Below are positions 42,795 through 47,882 of a stretch of DNA of 64,000 nt, in pieces (within the stretch, counting starts at the first letter, position 1; each line of letters begins with the position of its first letter). Under the pieces are notes generated by a model, which searched no databases, was not told the origin of the DNA, and saw only the letters and a program-made list of their open reading frames with translations. The DNA comes from Shigella phage ESh19. The stretch lies in the sequence record ON528729; one strand, 5' to 3'. Made by a program: the position numbers and the translations under genes.

Positions 42795-42870
42795 TGGAGT
42801 ATCGGAAGGGACTCGAACCCTCATAAACCTGTTTTGCAGACAGGCACATAACCATTTCTGACACCGACAC
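42795..42870 (-). tRNA. tRNA-Cys (GCA)
   Basis: T-arm GAGGG-TTCGAGT-CCCTT, anticodon stem CCTGT/ACAGG loop CTGCAAA, acceptor GTGTCGG/CCGATAC, U73, CCA encoded. Confidence 0.7.
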
Positions 42871-42876
42871 ATAATT

Positions 42877-42969
42877 TGGAGGAAGATACCAGACTTGAAC
42901 TGGTACGCCGATTTCTCGGTTACTGGCAGTTTAGCAAACTGCTCCCTTACCTTTTAGGGTTAATCTTCC
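42877..42969 (-). tRNA. tRNA-Ser (GCT), type II
   Basis: Acceptor GGAAGAT/ATCTTCC perfect, anticodon loop TTGCTAA, long variable arm, T-arm ACCAG-TTCAAGT-CTGGT. Confidence 0.7.
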
Positions 42970-42970
42970 A

Positions 42971-43704
42971 TTATTTGTTCAGAGCTTCTTTCATCTCTGG
43001 AGTTGCAATAGTATCAATCACACCAGTTTTACATGAATCATCAAACCAGCTTGGTAGAACATTTGCAAGGAAACCATTAATATTTGTTTTCAGGTATTCT
43101 GCAATCAGTGCTGCTTCATCTGCAATCATCTGAGTTACTTCATTAGCATATGCAGTAATCTTTGCAATACCCTCATTAATCGCTGTAACGGCCTGTGTAG
43201 CGAGTTCAGAGATTGTATCTAGTCCTTGGTCGATTGCATCTTGCAAATCGCTTAGAACGCTATTTACAGCGTCTATGGAGGTATTAATCAAATCCATCGC
43301 TTTATTACCGTACTCGGTAGCTACGCCCATGATACCACTAAACGGTGTACATCCAACCTGTTCACCTGCTGCTCCCATAACGTTAGAGTAACCCTTAGCT
43401 ACTTGCATACGTTGTGAAAACTCATCTACAGACTTTTGCCCATACTCAGTGAGTGTACTTGTCGTTGAAGTTGTACTTCCAAGGCTTGTTGTGAAGCTTC
43501 CTAATAGGGCTGTTGTCAGTCCAGCAGCAACTAAAATCTGTTGTGTAGCTGGGTCTGTTACAGAACTAATTGAGTTAACTAATGATTGAGAGGCAGCTAC
43601 AGTACCACCAAGAACTGCTGCACCAGTAATAAGAGGGTTTGAGAAACCATTACCGGTTTTAAGGAGATTAAAAATCTCTTTACTTTGTTCTGTCATCTCT
43701 TTCA
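42971..43704 (-). CDS. hypothetical Gly/Ala/Ser/Thr-rich protein (244 aa) inside tRNA island
   Basis: ORF track (start refined to ATG 43704; upstream extension overlaps tRNA-Phe). Confidence 0.45.
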
Positions 43705-43721
43705 TTATGCACCTATAAAGT

Positions 43722-43797
43722 TGGTAGCCCATCGGGATTTGAACCCTGTTCTCATGTTTTTCAGACACGCGCTTTAACCATATAAGCTAATTGAGCT
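43722..43797 (-). tRNA. tRNA-Phe (GAA)
   Basis: Anticodon stem CGTGT/ACATG loop CTGAAAA; T-loop TTCAAAT; acceptor AGCTCAA/ATGGGCT (one mismatch); CCA encoded. Confidence 0.55.
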
Positions 43798-43804
43798 ATT
43801 AAAT

Positions 43805-43881
43805 TGGGGTGACCTACGGGAATCGAACCCGTATAGACCATGTTCACAGCATGGGTCATTATCCATTTATGATAAGGCCAC
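43805..43881 (-). tRNA. tRNA-His (GTG)
   Basis: Anticodon stem CCATG/CATGG loop CTGTGAA, C73, T-arm ACGGG-TTCGATT-CCCGT. Confidence 0.7.
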
Positions 43882-43912
43882 ATTTAAGGACTCTCGTAAG
43901 AATCCTTAGAAG

Positions 43913-43988
43913 TGGCAGCAGTATAAGGATTTGAACCTTAATCTTTCAGCTTCAGAGGCTGGAGCATTCCCAGTTATGCTATACTGCT
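43913..43988 (-). tRNA. tRNA-Gln (CTG)
   Basis: Acceptor AGCAGTA/TACTGCT perfect, D-stem GCAT/ATGC, anticodon loop CTCTGAA, T-arm TAAGG-TTCAAAT-CCTTA. Confidence 0.6.
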
Positions 43989-43994
43989 AATATT

Positions 43995-44065
43995 TGGTAC
44001 TCCATATCGGATTCGAACCGATACATAACACAGATTTTAAATCTGGCCTCTCTGCCAATTGGAGT
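43995..44065 (-). tRNA. compact tRNA, anticodon loop TTTAAAA (anticodon TAA, Leu-type?)
   Basis: Canonical T-arm ATCGG-TTCGAAT-CCGAT and CCA; only 71 nt, atypical D/variable regions. Confidence 0.4.
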
Positions 44066-44075
44066 AATGGAGCGT

Positions 44076-44151
44076 TGGCGGGGGATGATGGAATTGAACC
44101 ATCTTCTTCGATTTCAAAGACCGAGGTTTTAACCTTGTAAACTAATCCCCT
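44076..44151 (-). tRNA. tRNA-Gln (TTG)
   Basis: D-stem GTTT/AAAC, anticodon stem TCGGT/ATCGA loop CTTTGAA, T-arm GATGG-TTCAATT-CCATC. Confidence 0.6.
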
Positions 44152-44377
44152 AACGAACTCTTGTCAGGATATATGCGTTATTACATGTATCCTTATTTTC
44201 TGGTAACATTGTTTCAAAGATAACTTGCTTGAGTTCTAATCCAGCAAAGTTGTAGACAATCTTTTTAACTTCGAGTGGGTCAGCTTTCCAGCCAACTCTA
44301 ATAAAGAATGTATCTCCAAGCCTTCCTGTTTCAAGTTTGTCATCTTCTTGGTGTTTTTCAACTATAAGTCTAAACAT
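44150..44377 (-). CDS. hypothetical protein (75 aa) between tRNAs
   Basis: ORF track; RBS AGGGTAG before ATG. Confidence 0.4.
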   Translation of the reverse strand: MFRLIVEKHQEDDKLETGRLGDTFFIRVGWKADPLEVKKIVYNFAGLELKQVIFETMLPENKDTCNNAYILTRVR

Positions 44378-44395
44378 AAGCTACCCTATTAAATT

Positions 44396-44472
44396 TGGTG
44401 CAGAATAGAGGATTCGAACCCCTAACTAACAACTTCGTAGGTTGCTGCTCTGTCCATTTGAACTAATTCTGC
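44396..44472 (-). tRNA. tRNA-Arg (ACG)
   Basis: Acceptor GCAGAAT/ATTCTGC perfect, anticodon stem GCAAC/GTTGT loop CTACGAA, T-arm AGGGG-TTCGAAT-CCTCT. Confidence 0.7.
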
Positions 44473-44634
44473 AATATCCTTTTGAGATTCCTGTCTAGCT
44501 CTCTTCTTATCTCTTCTGAGAAAGCGTTTACGATGGTCTGTGCGCCATTTGTAATAATCTTCTTCACCATCATGTGCTGCACAGCAGCCACAACTTGCAA
44601 TTTCAACTTTACCATGTCTACCATAAGGCTTCAT
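44422..44634 (-). CDS. small Cys-rich protein (70 aa as read; 3' end overlaps tRNA-Arg)
   Basis: Strong RBS AGGAG 7 nt before ATG 44634; SCGCCAAH motif; last 17 codons overlap tRNA 44396..44472. Confidence 0.3.
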   Translation of the reverse strand: MKPYGRHGKVEIASCGCCAAHDGEEDYYKWRTDHRKRFLRRDKKRARQESQKDIAELVQMDRAATYEVVS

Positions 44635-46473: not shown

Positions 46474-46550
46474 TGGAGGTTCAGGTGGGAATCGAACCCA
46501 CATTCATAGGGCTTATGAAACCCTTGCATTACCTTATCTGCGACTGAACC
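46474..46550 (-). tRNA. tRNA-Met (CAT) (could be initiator or lysidine-modified Ile2)
   Basis: Acceptor GGTTCAG/CTGAACC perfect, anticodon stem AGGGT/GCCCT loop TTCATAA, T-arm GTGGG-TTCGATT-CCCAC. Confidence 0.65.
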
Positions 46551-46631
46551 ATTATAAGTTGCCCCTTTGTAGAGAACTGATTGAGTGGGTGTTTCCAGCC
46601 GCGCATGTGTTCTTCAGTTAAGGGGCGAATT

Positions 46632-46707
46632 TGGTAGAAGTGGAGGGATTCGAACCCGTCGCCTGTCAGATTAAAAGTCTGCCGCATCACCATTCTGCTA
46701 CACTTCC
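46632..46707 (-). tRNA. tRNA-Lys (TTT)
   Basis: Anticodon loop CTTTTAA, T-loop TTCGAAT, acceptor GGAAGTG/CACTTCT. Confidence 0.6.
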
Positions 46708-46854
46708 ATTAAATCATCTTTGCAGTAACCTACGCAAACCTTGCTAAAGGGTTTGTAGAGTTGTCTCTTAGTAAGCTAATCTAGAATCATGCTCAAGAAA
46801 CTCATCGGCACTCATGGGACGACATATTAGCTCCATAAGTCACTGCAAAGAGGA

Positions 46855-46868
46855 TTACCAGACCGTAT
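46855..46868 (-). repeat. tRNA-island flank motif A (ATACGGTCTGGTAA on minus); other copies 46995-47011, 47483-47497, 47643-47656
   Basis: Four near-identical copies, two lying about 10 nt upstream of tRNA 5' ends (Asn, Met). Confidence 0.5.
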
Positions 46869-47157
46869 TTATCTTAAGTGCTTCCATTACACCAACACGC
46901 CGTAACGTGTGAAGGATTCGAACCTTCGCCTTTTCTTTACCAGAGAAATAGATTGTTTATTGTTTGCTGTAAACGGTCTTCTGTAAAATTGTTGGAACCA
47001 GACCAAGTTTTAAATTTTTCAAATTAAATTGGCTTGAAATATTAAAGTTGCTTGCTGTATTTGGTCTTCTGCTCCTTTAAAGAATACTCGTAAGAACTCT
47101 TTAAGGGAGGGGCTAACAAGCCCTCTCAAACATCATTTTGAAATACTTATTATAATT

Positions 47158-47234
47158 TGGCGGTTACGAAGGGAATCGAACCCTCATCTTCCTCCGTGAC
47201 AGGGAGGTATTTTATCCAGTTAAACTACATAACC
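47158..47234 (-). tRNA. tRNA-Asp (GTC)
   Basis: Anticodon stem CCTCC/GGAGG loop CTGTCAC, G73, T-arm GAGGG-TTCGATT-CCCTT. Confidence 0.7.
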
Positions 47235-47240
47235 TTTATT

Positions 47241-47328
47241 TGGTGCGCCGTGAAGGAGTCGAACCTACCGAGTCATAATGACAAGTGATTTACAGTCACC
47301 ACCGCTTCCATCTACGGGATAACGACGC
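47241..47328 (-). tRNA. tRNA-Tyr (GTA), type II
   Basis: Anticodon stem GGTGA/TCACT loop CTGTAAA, long variable arm, T-loop TTCGACT, 88 nt. Confidence 0.65.
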
Positions 47329-47397
47329 ATTTTATTCTATTCAGGCTAAGGACTTGCACCTTACAAATCGGTGAGCAATCGCTTCTCTCCCAAATCT

Positions 47398-47474
47398 TGG
47401 CGGTTAGTCAGGGATTCGAACCCTGTACCATTCGGTTAACAGCCGACCGCACATGCCTTATGTGCTTCCTAACC
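47398..47474 (-). tRNA. tRNA-Asn (GTT)
   Basis: Anticodon loop CTGTTAA, T-arm CAGGG-TTCGAAT-CCCTG, G73. Confidence 0.65.
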
Positions 47475-47530
47475 ATGTTAGTATTACCAGACCGTATCTT
47501 TTTATTTTTTCCGATAAAAAATTTTAAGTG

Positions 47531-47555
47531 TTTGCTGTAAACGGTCTTCTGTAAA
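47531..47555 (-). repeat. tRNA-island flank motif B (plus TTTGCTGTAAACGGTCTTCTGTAAA); other copies 46963-46987, 47048-47075, 47694-47720
   Basis: Four copies, two lying immediately 3' of tRNA CCA ends (Met, Glu). Confidence 0.5.
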
Positions 47556-47557
47556 TT

Positions 47558-47634
47558 TGGAGGCGGGTGTAGGAGTCGAACCTACCGATACCATGCTAAT
47601 GAGACATGTGAGACGCCCTTTCTCTATACCCGCA
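47558..47634 (-). tRNA. tRNA-Met (CAT), second copy (1-72 mismatch, initiator-like?)
   Basis: Anticodon stem CATGT/GCATG loop CTCATTA, T-arm GTAGG-TTCGACT-CCTAC. Confidence 0.6.
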
Positions 47635-47721
47635 ATTCTTAATGACCAGACCAAATCTTTTTTGGATTTCTATGCGCGAAATTGAAAAATTTGTTTGCTG
47701 TAATTGGCCTTCTGTCAAAAC

Positions 47722-47799
47722 TGGCATTCCCGAAGGGACTTGAACCCTCAAACCACACCTTGAAAGGGTGTTGACTTTACCTAATTTGTCTACGGGAAT
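47722..47799 (-). tRNA. tRNA-Glu (TTC)
   Basis: Acceptor ATTCCCG/CGGGAAT perfect, anticodon stem ACACC/GGTGT loop CTTTCAA, T-loop TTCAAGT. Confidence 0.7.
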
Positions 47800-47805
47800 A
47801 TAATT

Positions 47806-47882
47806 TGGTCTCCATTGAAGGACTTGAACCTTCGGCCTTACCGCCCCAAACGGAACGCTCTACCAAGCTGAGCTAAATGGAG
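47806..47882 (-). tRNA. tRNA-Pro (TGG)
   Basis: Acceptor CTCCATT/AATGGAG perfect, D-stem GCTC/GAGC, anticodon loop TTTGGGG, T-arm GAAGG-TTCAAGT-CCTTC. Confidence 0.7.

What the first reader, a model, noticed from the sequence alone, without database searches (positions are those of the whole stretch)
42795..47882. tRNA island of about 27 tRNAs covering all 20 amino acids, with small ORFs embedded
Hand folding identifies 27 minus-strand tRNAs (Cys, Ser x2, Phe, His, Gln x2, Arg x2, Val, Thr, Gly, Ala with G3-U70, Lys x2, Trp, Ile, Met x2, Asp, Tyr, Asn, Glu, Pro, plus three Leu-anticodon species). Most encode CCA. Such a complete set implies substantial codon-usage independence from the host. 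Protein genes (42971..43704, 44150..44377, 44422..44634) are interleaved.
Basis: seen in the sequence. Interest (0 to 1): 0.5.

Follow-up and report, generated by a model that had tools for sequence, protein, structure and literature searches.

The report
Phage tRNA island hiding Y-like RNAs
This is the already-annotated tRNA gene cluster of a Felix-O1-like phage (26 standard tRNAs plus an odd tryptophan-type one), but four of its "spacers" are unannotated stem-loop RNAs that appear to be partners of the Ro60-like RNA-binding protein encoded next door, a pairing that recurs in many distant phages.

Summary
ARAGORN finds 25 minus-strand tRNAs at 42795..47882, and Tyr-GTA appears at a relaxed threshold, giving 26 tRNAs for 19 amino acids; 25 of 26 encode CCA. 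There is, however, a conserved, covarying, non-canonical tRNA-like gene at 45825..45907 carrying the E. coli tRNA-Trp identity set (A1-U72, G73, CUCCAAA loop, CCA end).

The window is about 97% identical to Shigella phages Sf17/Sf18 (Mooglevirus), whose records annotate the same 25-26 tRNAs. The island itself is therefore already known.

What is not annotated:
- The gene just upstream (48048..49463, DUF2828+DUF7788) folds as a Ro60/TROVE+vWA protein.
- Four "spacers" (E1-E4) share the pattern AAG / 6-bp stem / UUACAGCAA / loop / stem / CUG.
- A covariance model of this element hits 59 times (E<0.01) in 76 distant DUF2828 loci and 21 times in 80 independent genome loci. Every hit lies on the gene strand and beside the gene, and DUF2828 is the only constant neighbour.
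- E4 carries a circularly permuted tRNA-like domain, as bacterial YrlA Y RNAs do.
- The signature matches Dictyostelium Class I RNAs.

A tmRNA-like tag module (ANDNVFLAVA) is also present.

The parts
48048..49463 (-). Ro60-like (TROVE-like HEAT ring + vWA/MIDAS) protein gene, Pfam DUF2828+DUF7788, PHROG 850 'RNA-binding protein'
   Evidence: Pfam/PHROG matches. AF2 model pLDDT 89.8. Top Foldseek PDB hits are Ro60/TROVE structures 9kop, 1yvr, 2i91, 9l5y, 2nvo: E 6e-8 to 1e-6, TM 0.43-0.63, near full length. DxSxS...T...D columns invariant in 40 homologues.
48001..48029 (-). sigma-70-type promoter-like site (TTGACA-17-TAATAT) at the head of the island
47910..47939 (-). sigma-70-type promoter-like site (TTGACA-18-TATAGT, extended -10 TG), 28 nt upstream of tRNA-Pro
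47806..47882 (-). tRNA-Pro (TGG)
47722..47799 (-). tRNA-Glu (TTC)
47646..47713 (-). E1: Y-RNA-like stem-loop (AGAAG-GCCAA-UU-ACAGCAA...UUGGUC-UGG), filling the Glu/Met spacer
   Evidence: motif, fold, model R1 42.0 bits E 1e-7, RF01414 19.7 bits
47558..47634 (-). tRNA-Met (CAT) with U1.C72 mismatch; not scored by the Rfam tRNA model
   Evidence: annotated tRNA-Met in Sf17/Sf18
47487..47550 (-). E2: Y-RNA-like stem-loop, filling the Met/Asn spacer
   Evidence: R1 55.9 bits E 5e-11; RF01414 25.7 bits
47398..47474 (-). tRNA-Asn (GTT)
47241..47328 (-). tRNA-Tyr (GTA), long variable arm
   Evidence: ARAGORN only at relaxed threshold, Rfam 22.8 bits, annotated by tRNAscan-SE in Sf17/Sf18
47158..47234 (-). 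tRNA-Asp (GTC)
46998..47070 (-). E3: Y-RNA-like stem-loop
   Evidence: R1 46.6 bits E 9e-9
46858..46982 (-). E4: Y-RNA-like stem enclosing a circularly permuted tRNA-like domain, in the order anticodon-like arm (loop CUGGUAA), T arm, acceptor-like hairpin closed by a UACG tetraloop, D arm
   Evidence: fold. The Rfam tRNA model scores only 29.6 bits on part of it, with a broken acceptor stem. 3 of 6 acceptor-hairpin pairs covary among Mooglevirus/Felixounavirus variants. Present but unannotated in 245 phage records.
46632..46707 (-). tRNA-Lys (TTT)
46474..46550 (-). tRNA-Met (CAT)
46397..46471 (-). tRNA-Ile (GAT)
46354..46382 (-). internal sigma-70-type promoter-like site (TTGACA-17-TAAGAT)
46150..46353 (-). 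tmRNA-like message module: resume-like GCA at 46302, tag ANDNVFLAVA, UAA UAG ending at 46270, followed by conserved hairpins; no convincing tRNA-like domain
   Evidence: RF04321 34.1 bits and RF01849 20.3 bits. Tag conserved, with only synonymous changes. ARAGORN calls it only at -ps80.
46073..46149 (-). tRNA-Arg (TCT)
45825..45907 (-). non-canonical Trp-type tRNA-like gene (A1-U72, G73, CCA end, loop CUCCAAA, C31.A39 mismatch, 8-nt acceptor/D connector)
   Evidence: E. coli tRNA-Trp reference; not called by any predictor
45559..45648 (-). tRNA-Ser (TGA), the only tRNA without encoded CCA
45229..45305 (-). tRNA-Leu (TAG)
45146..45221 (-). tRNA-Lys (CTT)
45064..45139 (-). tRNA-Ala (TGC) with G3-U70
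44983..45057 (-). tRNA-Gly (TCC)
44901..44976 (-). tRNA-Thr (TGT)
44730..44804 (-). tRNA-Val (TAC)
44651..44728 (-). tRNA-Leu (CAA)
44422..44634 (-). 70-aa ORF (phrog_10765), overlapping tRNA-Arg-ACG by 51 nt
   Evidence: annotated in Sf17 and Michonne
44396..44472 (-). tRNA-Arg (ACG)
44150..44377 (-). 75-aa ORF (phrog_14202)
44076..44151 (-). tRNA-Gln (TTG)
43995..44073 (-). tRNA-Leu (TAA)
43913..43988 (-). tRNA-Gln (CTG)
43805..43881 (-). tRNA-His (GTG)
43722..43797 (-). tRNA-Phe (GAA)
42971..43705 (-). DUF7217 protein gene (predicted membrane protein in Sf17); the mechanical ORF extends to 43768
42877..42969 (-). tRNA-Ser (GCT)
42795..42870 (-). tRNA-Cys (GCA), last gene of the island
42703..42762 (-). 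long GC-rich hairpin followed by a U run: intrinsic terminator closing the island (a second lies at 42610..42637)
   Evidence: terminators annotated at the same place in Michonne

Best explanation
The interval is the conserved small-RNA operon of a Mooglevirus (Felix-O1-like, Ounavirinae) phage of Shigella/E. coli/Citrobacter.

Shown:
- It holds 26 canonical co-oriented tRNA genes (19 amino acids, 25 with encoded CCA).
- It holds one conserved, covarying, non-canonical Trp-type tRNA-like gene.
- It lies between sigma-70-like promoters and terminator hairpins.
- It sits directly downstream of a gene whose product has the Ro60 (TROVE ring + vWA) fold.

Inferred: host RNA polymerase makes long precursors, which host RNase P and 3'-end processing enzymes cut into mature RNAs.

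The tRNAs are mostly the U34 (or G34) isoacceptors for the A/U-ending codons that this 39%-GC phage uses far more than its 51%-GC host. They most likely top up rare host tRNAs. From published work on other phages, they may also replace tRNAs destroyed by host anticodon nucleases.

Four of the apparent spacers (E1-E4) are RNAs in their own right. Each has a terminal helix closed by A.G/A-U/G-C (5'-AAG...CUG-3'). A 6-bp stem of free, covarying sequence follows. Then comes the single-stranded motif U(U/A)ACAGCAA and a variable loop. tRNA processing on both sides would release them as species of roughly 65-125 nt.

Inferred from strict co-occurrence across distant phages: E1-E4 bind the neighbouring Ro60-like protein the way Y RNAs bind Ro60. 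Their loops (in E4, a circularly permuted tRNA mimic like that of bacterial YrlA) would tether or gate the protein toward tRNA-handling or RNA-decay enzymes. This RNP, rather than the tRNAs, is the likely basis of the anti-defence phenotype reported for the orthologous Bas63 gp130.
For: tRNAs.

Identity of the phage and prior annotation: 97% identity to Sf17/Sf18 with the same tRNA list.

Trp-like gene: 100% of cells paired over 20 pairs, 6 pairs compensatory, slid controls 0. It shares the E. coli tRNA-Trp identity features.

Codon data. Promoters and terminators.

Ro60 fold. Independent report for Bas63 gp130: 10.1101/2024.10.10.617714.

E elements in the window:
- 4 of 4 copies of the 22-nt motif lie only in the island, against 0 expected.
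- All four fold the same way, and their stems covary.

E elements in other loci:
- The descriptor gives 68 gene-strand hits against 1 opposite-strand hit in 79 DUF2828 loci. With a relaxed motif the counts are 107 vs 1 and 30 vs 1, against 9 vs 10 in control loci.
- Model R1 gives 59 hits with E<0.01 in 76 viral loci, all on the gene strand, including 21 loci not used for training.
- R1 gives 21 hits with E<0.01 in 80 independent GTDB loci, all on the gene strand and within about 2 kb of the gene.
- R1 gives only 2 hits with E<0.01 in 0.87 Mb of control phage DNA that contains the primary motif.
- DUF2828 is the only protein family shared by all 54 loci that carry the RNA; the next real family is in 9 of 54.
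- The elements occur next to DUF2828 in loci with no tRNA genes: L058, L059, L060, L026.
- Short versions overlap the RBS of the DUF2828 gene itself.
- 28% of loops carry a T-loop-like GTTCRA. One copy scores 32.9 bits with Rfam YrlA.
Against: - There is no expression, processing or binding data for this phage.
- The E elements lack the GNCGAA motif that defines bacterial YrlA/Y RNAs (PMC4201824). The Rfam YrlA model does not hit E4.
- Thermodynamic z-scores of E1-E4 are weak, -0.8 to -1.7.
- The stem statistics come from sequences pre-selected for pairing.
- The protein-RNA link is guilt by association.
- Only about half of the DUF2828 loci show a model hit.
- The Trp-like RNA has an abnormal D region and is rejected by all predictors.
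- The global codon test is not significant.
Confidence: 0.8

Rival explanations
1. E1-E4 are only structured spacers of the tRNA precursor (RNase E/III/P guide hairpins or weak attenuators). On this view they have no trans-acting role and no link to the Ro60-like protein.
For: They lie exactly between tRNA genes and fill whole spacers. Other spacers of the island are also strongly structured. Their folding z-scores are unremarkable.
Against: The same element sits next to DUF2828 genes in distant phages that have no tRNA genes in the locus. It also occurs in the gene's own 5'UTR. It always lies on the gene strand. A conserved single-stranded 8-nt motif and fixed closing pairs are not what a processing hairpin or terminator needs, and no U tract follows the stem.
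Confidence: 0.1
2. The conserved element is purely a cis-acting operator for translational autoregulation of the DUF2828 gene. The copies inside the tRNA island would then be titrating decoys or evolutionary leftovers rather than Y-RNA-like cofactors.
For: Minimal 32-45-nt versions overlap the Shine-Dalgarno sequence or start of the DUF2828 gene in L012, L013, L014, L025, L033, L078 and L082.
Against: The window has no such copy in its own 5'UTR; the only hits lie 0.3-1.2 kb downstream of the gene. Most loci have 2-4 full-size copies with elaborate loops, and 28% of those loops carry tRNA-like modules. That is typical of effector-recruiting Y RNAs. An operator role is still consistent with protein binding, so it complements the main explanation rather than replacing it.
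Confidence: 0.1
3. The tRNA island exists mainly as a counter-defence: a spare pool resistant to host anticodon nucleases and tRNA depletion. Codon-usage matching would then be secondary.
For: The set includes species known from the literature (my own knowledge, not tested here) to be targets of anticodon nucleases: Lys-UUU, Tyr/His/Asn/Asp, Arg and Met. The Bas63 tRNA genes are mostly dispensable on laboratory hosts, and the authors call them a conditional toolbox. The neighbouring Ro60-like gene counters the Ppl defence system in Bas63. The global codon test is not significant.
Against: The isoacceptor choice tracks the most over-used codons strikingly: AGA 8x, ACA, CUA, UCA and GGA 2.4-3.8x. 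No nuclease-resistance features were examined here. The two roles are not exclusive.
Confidence: 0.35
4. The Trp-type element at 45825..45907 is not a decoding tRNA. It would be a tRNA-like regulatory or decoy RNA, or a degenerating gene, so the phage supplies only 19 amino acids.
For: No predictor accepts it, and no relative annotates it. It has an 8-nt connector in place of U8-N9, a 3-4-bp D stem with a bulge, and C31.A39 and A49.C65 mismatches.
Against: It is conserved across two genera, with compensatory changes in the D, anticodon and T stems, and the loop CCUCCAAAA is invariant. It carries A1-U72, G73, anticodon CCA and an encoded CCA end, exactly as in E. coli tRNA-Trp. A decaying pseudogene would not covary.
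Confidence: 0.4

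Closest known systems
tRNA gene clusters of Felix-O1-like phages (Ounavirinae: Felix O1, wV8, Moogle, Michonne, Shigella Sf13-Sf19)
   Same: Same locus, order and anticodons. The window is 95-98% identical to Sf17, Sf18 and Michonne, where 25-26 of these tRNAs are annotated. Papers report 21-23 tRNAs for Moogle, Felix O1 and wV8 (PMC4319497 and the PMC2674420 abstract).
   Different: Nothing differs in the tRNA genes themselves. The Trp-type gene, E1-E4 and the other structured spacers are not annotated in any of the records inspected.
Ro60-Y RNA ribonucleoproteins, especially bacterial/phage Rsr with YrlA (Rfam RF02553) and Thermus phage phiLo Ro60 with Yrl1/2
   Same: A ring-plus-vWA protein of the Ro60 fold is encoded next to several small RNAs whose 5' and 3' ends form a stem around a large loop. 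One RNA (E4) has a T arm, a closed acceptor-like hairpin and a D arm, as in YrlA (PMC4201824, PMC12135203). There are multiple Y-like RNAs per locus.
   Different: The protein belongs to Pfam DUF2828/DUF7788, not TROVE, and has only 11-16% identity to solved Ro60s. The RNA lacks the GNCGAA/CGAA motif and instead has AAG-stem-UACAGCAA...CUG. The Rfam YrlA model does not hit E4. E4 keeps an anticodon-like arm in addition to the Y stem. The RNAs are embedded in a tRNA operon.
Dictyostelium Class I RNAs (Rfam RF01414)
   Same: Both are about 60 nt and share the following:
- a 6-bp terminal stem of free, covarying sequence closed by an invariant G-C;
- conserved AAG at the 5' end and CUG(U) at the 3' end;
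- the motif UUACAGCAA immediately 3' of the 5' stem strand;
- an A/U-rich variable loop.
RF01414 is the best non-tRNA Rfam match for the E elements: 25.7, 19.7 and 17.5 bits in the window, 29.1 and 25.4 bits in distant loci. 20 of 23 published dictyostelid Class I sequences, plus the paper's one Arabidopsis outgroup candidate, pass the phage-derived descriptor.
   Different: All scores fall below the gathering score of 41.5. The spacer between stem and ACAGCAA is 2 nt in phages and 3 nt (CCU/CUU) in amoebae. Class I RNAs are Pol III-type genes with a DUSE promoter, were reported as unique to Dictyostelia, and have an RRM protein (Rnp1A) as their known binder (PMC7919456). Whether Dictyostelium has a DUF2828 protein could not be checked here.
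tmRNA (SsrA)
   Same: The module at 46150..46353 has the resume consensus AAUAAAU-GCA, an ANDN... tag ending in hydrophobic/Ala residues, and two stop codons. It matches the tag region of alpha/permuted tmRNA models. ARAGORN-based ssrA calls were published for Moogle and Felix O1.
   Different: It has no recognisable alanine-accepting tRNA-like domain (no G3-U70 acceptor). ARAGORN at default settings and Rfam at gathering score reject it. The relaxed ARAGORN call borrows half of tRNA-Arg-UCU.

Membership tests
Ounavirinae (Felix-O1-like) phage tRNA cluster | Array of co-oriented genes recognised by tRNA predictors | tested here: met
   25 by ARAGORN at default settings and 26 at relaxed threshold; 24 Rfam matches at gathering score, 23 of them on ARAGORN tRNAs and one on the tRNA-like part of E4.
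Ounavirinae (Felix-O1-like) phage tRNA cluster | Sequence homology and synteny with annotated clusters (terminase ... tRNAs ... DUF2828 gene) | tested here: met
   97% coverage at 95-98% identity to Sf17, Sf18 and Michonne, with the same gene order.
tRNA-Trp | Called by standard predictors (ARAGORN, tRNAscan-SE, Rfam RF00005) | tested here: not met
   No call for 45825..45907. Not annotated in relatives.
tRNA-Trp | Cloverleaf helices supported by covariation | tested here: met
   20 of 20 pairs form in all variants; 6 pairs show compensatory changes; slid controls give 0. Only 4-5 distinct sequences were available.
tRNA-Trp | Bacterial Trp identity set: anticodon CCA in a CUCCAAA loop, G73, A1-U72, 3' CCA | tested here: met
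   Read and compared with E. coli trpT. That these are the TrpRS identity elements is from my own knowledge.
tRNA-Trp | Canonical core geometry (U8-N9 connector, 4-bp D stem, paired 31:39) | tested here: not met
   8-nt connector, 3-bp D stem plus one pair across a bulge, C31.A39 mismatch.
tRNA-Trp | Aminoacylation with tryptophan | not testable with these tools
   Needs TrpRS charging or tRNA-seq.
Ro60/TROVE protein family | HEAT-repeat ring followed by a vWA domain (fold) | tested here: met
   AF2 pLDDT 89.8 and pTM 0.89. The eleven best PDB matches are Ro60/TROVE chains, E 6e-8 to 1e-6, over about 520-570 aligned columns.
Ro60/TROVE protein family | Sequence membership (Pfam TROVE PF05731, or detectable similarity to solved Ro60s) | tested here: not met
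   Pfam gives only DUF2828 and DUF7788. phmmer against PDB sequences finds no Ro60.
Ro60/TROVE protein family | MIDAS motif DxSxS...T...D in the vWA domain | tested here: met
   D279, S281, S283, T349 and D381 are invariant in 40 homologues.
Y RNA / YrlA (RF02553) | Encoded next to the Ro60 gene, same strand | tested here: met
   E1-E4 lie 0.3-1.2 kb downstream. The same arrangement holds in 40 of 76 viral loci and 18 of 80 genome loci at E<0.01.
Y RNA / YrlA (RF02553) | 5' and 3' ends pair into a stem enclosing a large loop | tested here: met
   Folds. Stems have free sequence but pair perfectly in non-training hits. 5 of 6 pairs covary (on a pre-selected set).
Y RNA / YrlA (RF02553) | Conserved Ro-binding motif GNCGAAN0-1G / CGAA near the 5' end | tested here: not met
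   Absent from E1-E4. The conserved motif is instead U(U/A)ACAGCAA.
Y RNA / YrlA (RF02553) | tRNA-like domain (T arm, closed acceptor-like stem, D arm) | tested here: met
   Met in E4 only. E1-E3 have plain loops.
Y RNA / YrlA (RF02553) | Rfam model score at or above gathering (69 bits) | tested here: not met
   No YrlA hit on E4 even at E<=10. The best score in a related locus is 32.9 bits.
Y RNA / YrlA (RF02553) | Physical binding to the Ro60 homologue | not testable with these tools
   Needs RIP/CLIP or EMSA.
Dictyostelium Class I RNA (RF01414) | Short terminal stem closed by invariant G-C, conserved AAG start and CUGU end | tested here: met
   AAG ... CUG(G/A/U) and a 6-bp stem, compared with PMC7919456.
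Dictyostelium Class I RNA (RF01414) | 11-nt motif CCUUACAGCAA next to the 5' stem strand | tested here: inconclusive
   8-9 of 11 positions are shared (UUACAGCAA). The spacer is one nucleotide shorter.
Dictyostelium Class I RNA (RF01414) | Rfam gathering score (41.5 bits) | tested here: not met
   17.5-29.1 bits; none at gathering score in 150 kb of related loci.
Dictyostelium Class I RNA (RF01414) | DUSE promoter and dictyostelid host | tested here: not met
   The elements are phage-encoded and lie within a bacterial-type operon.
tmRNA | Resume codon plus tag ORF with SsrA-like peptide and stop | tested here: met
   GCA at 46302, tag ANDNVFLAVA, then two stops. The only two substitutions within the tag ORF among the nine sequences compared are synonymous.
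tmRNA | Alanine-accepting tRNA-like domain formed by the 5' and 3' ends (G3-U70, T arm, CCA) | tested here: not met
   ARAGORN at default settings finds none. The relaxed call borrows the 3' half of tRNA-Arg-UCU and has no G3-U70.

The most novel reading that the evidence does not exclude
DUF2828-type Ro60-like proteins and the 'AAG / 6-bp stem / U(U/A)ACAGCAA ... stem / CUG' RNAs form a previously undescribed, widespread class of Ro/Y-type ribonucleoprotein in phages. Their loops display tRNA bodies or tRNA mimics, and the RNP acts in tRNA-centred conflict with host defences.

The abundant Class I RNAs of dictyostelid amoebae carry the same signature, and their function has remained largely unresolved since their discovery. 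On this reading they are eukaryotic members or analogues of the same RNA class, recognised by a DUF2828/TROVE-like protein.
Probability: 0.2. Interest if true: 0.85.

Novelty: new variant of a known kind. Interest (0 to 1): 0.55.

Why it matters
The tRNA island itself adds nothing new: it is annotated in over a hundred Felix-O1-like genomes.

What is new is a concrete, testable RNA partner for the Ro60-like DUF2828 protein. That protein family has thousands of members in phages, many of them tRNA-rich. In phage Bas63 its orthologue was reported to counter the Ppl defence system, and the authors could only guess that 'some tRNA genes are possibly Y RNAs'.

The element defined here is conserved from enterobacterial myoviruses to marine and gut phages. 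It comes with a ready covariance model, exact coordinates and a clear mutagenesis plan: ACAGCAA, the AAG/CUG closing pairs, and compensatory stem swaps. It would extend the Ro60/Y-RNA principle to a second protein family with a different recognition code.

The findings also suggest that phages mount tRNA bodies on a Y-type scaffold, and they give an unexpected lead on the long-unexplained Dictyostelium Class I RNAs.

Finally, standard tRNA predictors miss a covarying Trp-type gene, so published tRNA counts for this phage group are probably one short.

Tried and rejected
- **Reverse association test.** I scanned viral contigs for the primary motif AAAGRN5WTACAGCAA...CTGW. 119 of 120 matches were chance matches with no stem and no DUF2828 nearby, so the test was uninformative. 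I reused these loci only as a negative control.
- **AlphaFold-database fold search.** I wanted to see whether Dictyostelium or plants have DUF2828-fold proteins, but the library was unavailable.
- **Literature.** Searches for DUF2828, PF11443/UCP015417 and the UACAGCAA motif found nothing on this RNA or on amoebal homologues.
- **YrlA membership of E4.** Rejected: no Rfam hit.
- **The Rfam 'tRNA' hit at 46903..46977 (29.6 bits).** Rejected as a tRNA. Its acceptor stem is broken, and it is the anticodon-like arm plus T arm of E4.
- **A genuine tmRNA at 46150..46396.** The tag is convincing but the tRNA-like domain is not.
- **Global codon test** (covered versus uncovered codons). Not significant.
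- **Thermodynamic z-scores for E1-E4.** Weak, and not used as evidence.
- **Sequence search of the protein against PDB.** Nothing found. Only the fold comparison shows the Ro60 relationship.

Full report
**1. What the window is**

The interval and its flanks are 95-98% identical over 91-97% of their length to Shigella phages Sf13-Sf19 and to Citrobacter phages Michonne and Maleficent. These belong to genus Mooglevirus, subfamily Ounavirinae, the Felix-O1-like myoviruses. In all, 358 phage records match. Gene order is terminase large subunit (40746..42362), a small ORF, the tRNA island, then a DUF2828 gene (48048..49463), all on the minus strand.

**2. Check of the observation**

- Rfam's tRNA model confirms 23 of these at gathering score. 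His appears only in the more permissive search. Met 47558..47634 is not scored at all.
- Tyr-GTA (47241..47328) is weak in Rfam (22.8 bits) and appears in ARAGORN only at a lowered threshold. tRNAscan-SE annotates it in Sf17 and Sf18.
- That gives 26 canonical tRNAs for 19 amino acids. 25 of them end in an encoded CCA; Ser-TGA does not.
- The three ORFs exist and belong to conserved phage families: DUF7217, phrog_14202 and phrog_10765. The ORF at 44422..44634 overlaps tRNA-Arg-ACG by 51 nt.

**3. The 27th species, Trp**

No tool calls a tRNA-Trp, and no related record annotates one. There is, however, an 83-nt tRNA-like gene at 45825..45907 with these features:
- acceptor stem AUGGGAC/GUCCCAU (A1-U72), then G73 and CCA;
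- a T arm;
- an anticodon stem with the loop CUCCAAA flanked by a C31.A39 mismatch;
- an abnormal 5' core, with eight nucleotides where U8-N9 should be and a 3-bp D stem plus one pair across a bulge.

E. coli tRNA-Trp, verified by a 100% match annotated tRNA-Trp in 5426 genomes, has the same A1-U72, G73 and CUCCAAA loop.

Across Mooglevirus and Felixounavirus variants, all 20 proposed pairs form in every sequence. Six pairs carry compensatory double changes (four in the anticodon stem, one in the D stem, one in the T stem). Slid-partner controls give none.

It is therefore a selected, structured RNA with Trp identity marks. Whether it is charged is unknown. 'All 20 amino acids' is plausible but unproven.

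**4. Interpretation of the tRNA set**

The window is 39.1% GC, against 50.6% for a 49-kb E. coli K-12 sample. Over 63 long ORFs, the codons most over-represented relative to the host each have a cognate phage tRNA: AGA 8.2x, ACA 3.8x, CUA and UCA 2.8x, GGA 2.4x, CCA and AAG 1.9x, UUA 1.8x. In every four-codon box the phage encodes the U34 isoacceptor. This supports codon compensation.

Strict wobble covers only 75-76% of phage codons, and the global RSCU test is not significant. In Bas63 the tRNA genes were mostly dispensable. 'Independence from the host' is therefore too strong. An anti-defence role is a live alternative, and the two roles are compatible.

**5. Transcription signals**

Four minus-strand sites have a perfect TTGACA -35 element:
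- upstream of the DUF2828 gene (49529..49501);
- two in tandem between that gene and tRNA-Pro (48029..48001 and 47939..47910);
- one inside the island (46382..46354).

After tRNA-Cys come two strong hairpins with U runs; the 219-nt region has z = -7.2. Michonne annotates terminators at the same place. Processing by host enzymes is inferred, not shown.

**6. The neighbouring gene is Ro60-like**

The 471-aa product matches Pfam DUF2828 and DUF7788 and PHROG 850, 'RNA-binding protein'. Sequence search against PDB finds nothing.

An AlphaFold2 model built on 40 diverse homologues has pLDDT 89.8 and pTM 0.89. Its eleven best Foldseek PDB matches are all Ro60/TROVE structures: Thermus phage phiLo Ro60 (9kop, 9l5y), Xenopus and human Ro60 (1yvr, 2i91, 9nfa) and Deinococcus Rsr (2nvo). 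E-values run from 6e-8 to 1e-6, TM from 0.43 to 0.63, over nearly the full length. Isolated vWA domains come next. The MIDAS residues DxSxS...T...D are invariant.

A 2024 preprint reached the same fold assignment for the Bas63 orthologue gp130. [quoted passage not shown]

**7. Four spacers are a conserved RNA element**

The 22-nt pattern AGAAGRCC-N-ACAGCAARCA occurs four times in the 64-kb window. All four lie on the minus strand inside the island, against 0 expected. Each is followed 40-100 nt later by GGTCTGGT.

All four fold the same way:
- an outer 4-5-bp stem;
- an AGA/G internal bulge;
- a 7-bp inner stem whose sequence differs between copies but stays paired (AGGCCAA/UUGGUCU, AGACCGU/ACGGUCU, AGACCAA/UUGGUCU);
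- then a loop beginning UUACAGCAAACA.

E1 (47646..47713) and E2 (47487..47550) fill the Glu/Met and Met/Asn spacers. E3 (46998..47070) and E4 (46858..46982) lie between Asp and Lys-UUU.

E4's loop holds, in order, an anticodon-like arm, a T arm (GAAGGUUCGAAUCCUUC), a 6-bp acceptor-like hairpin capped by a UACG tetraloop, and a D arm. This is a circularly permuted tRNA. It is what Rfam's marginal 'tRNA' hit at 46903..46977 picked up, with a broken acceptor stem.

Among Mooglevirus and Felixounavirus variants the acceptor-like hairpin changes sequence completely (ACACGU/GCGUGU, ACUCG/CGAGU, ACCCUUC/GAAGGGU), with 3 of 6 aligned pairs compensatory. E4 is present and unannotated in 245 phage records, including Bas63.

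**8. The element follows the DUF2828 gene, not the tRNAs**

I fetched 80 IMG/VR loci encoding DUF2828 homologues of 38-85% identity.

- *Descriptor scan.* The descriptor is G + >=5-bp stem + 0-4 nt + ACAGCAA ... stem' + CTG. It hit 68 times on the gene strand and once on the other strand. A version with a relaxed motif, an A before the G and a stem of at least 6 bp gave 107 vs 1.
- *Covariance model.* Model R1 was built from 30 copies. In the window it finds only E2, E3, E1 and the 5' part of E4. In 76 loci (1.1 Mb, both strands) it finds 91 hits at E<=1, all on the gene strand. 59 of these have E<0.01, in 40 loci. 21 of those loci were not used for training; they carry the motif variants UUCAGCAA or UACCGCAA and still have perfectly paired stems of unrelated sequence.
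- *Independent replication.* In 80 GTDB genome contigs from many phyla (30-42% protein identity), R1 gave 34 hits at E<=0.1. All were on the gene strand and within about 2 kb of the gene, mostly under 700 nt.
- *Negative control.* 100 unrelated viral loci that contain the bare sequence motif (0.87 Mb) gave only 2 hits with E<0.01, with a maximum of 31 bits.
- *Neighbour genes.* Across 54 RNA-bearing loci, DUF2828 is the only protein family present in all. The next real family is in 9.
- *Independence from tRNAs.* Several of these loci have no tRNA gene at all (L058, L059, L060, L026).
- *Copies in the gene's own leader.* In some phages a minimal 32-45-nt copy overlaps the ribosome-binding site of the DUF2828 gene itself. 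This suggests autoregulation and, more importantly, direct recognition by the protein.
- *Loop content.* 28% of loops contain a T-loop-like GTTCRA. One encloses a complete tRNA (L070, 55 bits). One encloses a tRNA body with a truncated acceptor stem (L037). One scores 32.9 bits with Rfam YrlA (L068).

**9. Mechanism proposed**

By analogy with Ro60/Y RNA, I infer three steps:
- The DUF2828 protein binds the conserved helix end (A.G, A-U, G-C) together with the adjacent single-stranded UACAGCAA.
- The variable loops, including tRNA mimics, recruit or gate other factors.
- In this phage the RNAs are produced as by-products of tRNA operon processing.

The co-occurrence, strand bias, covariation and Ro60 fold are shown. 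Binding, processing and function are inferred.

The family fails two defining YrlA tests: it has no GNCGAA motif and gets no Rfam hit. I therefore file it as a new variant of the Ro/Y kind, not as YrlA.

**10. An unexpected resemblance**

The only non-tRNA Rfam family that repeatedly aligns end-to-end with these elements is RF01414, the Dictyostelium Class I RNA. Scores are 25.7, 19.7 and 17.5 bits in the window and 29.1 and 25.4 bits in distant loci. All fall below the gathering score of 41.5.

Published Class I RNAs are about 60 nt. They start AAG, have a covarying 6-bp stem followed by CCUUACAGCAA, and end CUGU (PMC7919456). 20 of the 23 dictyostelid sequences taken from that paper's supplement, plus its one Arabidopsis outgroup candidate, pass the phage-derived descriptor. 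They differ only by a 3-nt instead of 2-nt spacer.

DUF2828 proteins also occur in eukaryotes; the plant papers show this. I could not check Dictyostelium. I treat this as a lead, not a finding.

**11. Other content of the island**

- The 247-nt gap between tRNA-Ile and tRNA-Arg-UCU has its own promoter and a tmRNA-like message: resume consensus, GCA at 46302, tag ANDNVFLAVA, then UAA UAG. The tag peptide is identical in all nine sequences compared (the window, three other Mooglevirus records and five Felixounavirus-like loci). The only two substitutions inside it are synonymous: GAU to GAC, and UAA to UGA.
- No credible alanine-accepting tRNA-like domain accompanies this module. ARAGORN calls it only at a relaxed threshold, and does so by borrowing half of tRNA-Arg. 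Genome announcements mention an ARAGORN ssrA call in Moogle and Felix O1.
- Several other spacers are strongly structured, notably 46708..46856 (z = -5.1).

**12. Verdict**

Predictors confirm 26 of 27 tRNAs, and the 27th is a real but non-canonical gene. The tRNA island itself is already known and annotated.

Those regions hold a conserved Y-RNA-like family tied to a Ro60-like protein. Within the literature I could search, this family has not been described.

Noticed in passing
window 46150..46396 (-): tmRNA-like message module with its own TTGACA-17-TAAGAT promoter. It has a resume-like GCA at 46302 and the tag ANDNVFLAVA followed by UAA UAG. The tag is conserved, with only synonymous changes, across Mooglevirus and Felixounavirus. 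It lacks a convincing tRNA-like domain. ARAGORN calls it only at -ps80, and Rfam tmRNA_permuted gives 34.1 bits, below gathering. An ARAGORN ssrA call was reported for Moogle and Felix O1.
   Followed up: partly
window 46708..46856 (-): A 140-nt RNA predicted to form a three-way junction closed by a long outer stem of about 20 pairs (MFE -48.6 kcal/mol, z = -5.1, 0 of 200 shuffles as stable). It lies between E4 and tRNA-Lys-UUU. Among the loci compared it is present only in Mooglevirus relatives, and it matches no Rfam family.
   Followed up: partly
window 44805..44900 (-) and 46551..46631 (-): Two further structured spacers (z = -2.7 and -3.6). The first is 97% conserved in Felixounavirus loci and contains CUGAAGACCGUAACAAA, which resembles a degenerate copy of the 5' motif of E1-E4.
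   Followed up: no
window 44396..44634 (-): The conserved 70-aa ORF (phrog_10765) overlaps the 5' two-thirds of tRNA-Arg-ACG by 51 nt on the same strand. The overlap is also annotated in Sf17 and Michonne.
   Followed up: no
window 47558..47634 (-): The second tRNA-Met (CAU) has a U1.C72 mismatch at the top of the acceptor stem and an odd D arm. ARAGORN and tRNAscan accept it, but the Rfam tRNA model does not score it. It could be an initiator-like species or an Ile2 (lysidine) species.
   Followed up: no
window 45649..45824 (-); L001 (Sf17) about 5815..5948: The Ser-UGA/Arg-UCU gap varies between close relatives. The window carries about 170 extra bases (z = -4.1, small ORF 45714..45881) that Sf17 and Sf18 lack. 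Sf17 instead carries about 130 extra bases holding another T-arm-containing tRNA-like sequence. Michonne has an HNH endonuclease gene in the neighbouring Leu-UAG/Ser-UGA gap.
   Followed up: no
L012 7951..7988, L013 1761..1797, L014 2856..2892, L025 7947..7987, L033 7900..7939, L082 7901..7942: Minimal versions of the AAG-stem-ACAGCAA-stem-CUG element sit directly on the Shine-Dalgarno sequence or start codon of the DUF2828 gene in distant phages. This suggests translational autoregulation by the Ro60-like protein.
   Followed up: partly
L070 10518..10613, L037 7728..7832, L051 11920-12540, L068 1520-1834: In distant phages the Y-like scaffold carries whole or acceptor-truncated tRNA bodies (Arg-UCU-like, Thr-UGU-like) or YrlA-like permuted tRNA domains in its loop. 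E4 and its Michonne counterpart both present GGU in the anticodon-like loop.
   Followed up: partly
L051 8605..9054, L056 13715..14132, L063 10616..11089; L021 13708..13934, L068 8800..9042: Distant DUF2828 loci also carry full-length one-piece tmRNA genes (70-88 bits) and group I introns near the gene. The DUF2828 gene therefore tends to sit in RNA-rich 'translation' islands.
   Followed up: no
Supplement of PMC7919456 (outgroup candidates): An Arabidopsis candidate (ath_can_1, CM score 40) has the same G-stem-AUUACAGCAA...stem-CUG layout and passes the phage descriptor. Plants are known to encode DUF2828 proteins.
   Followed up: no
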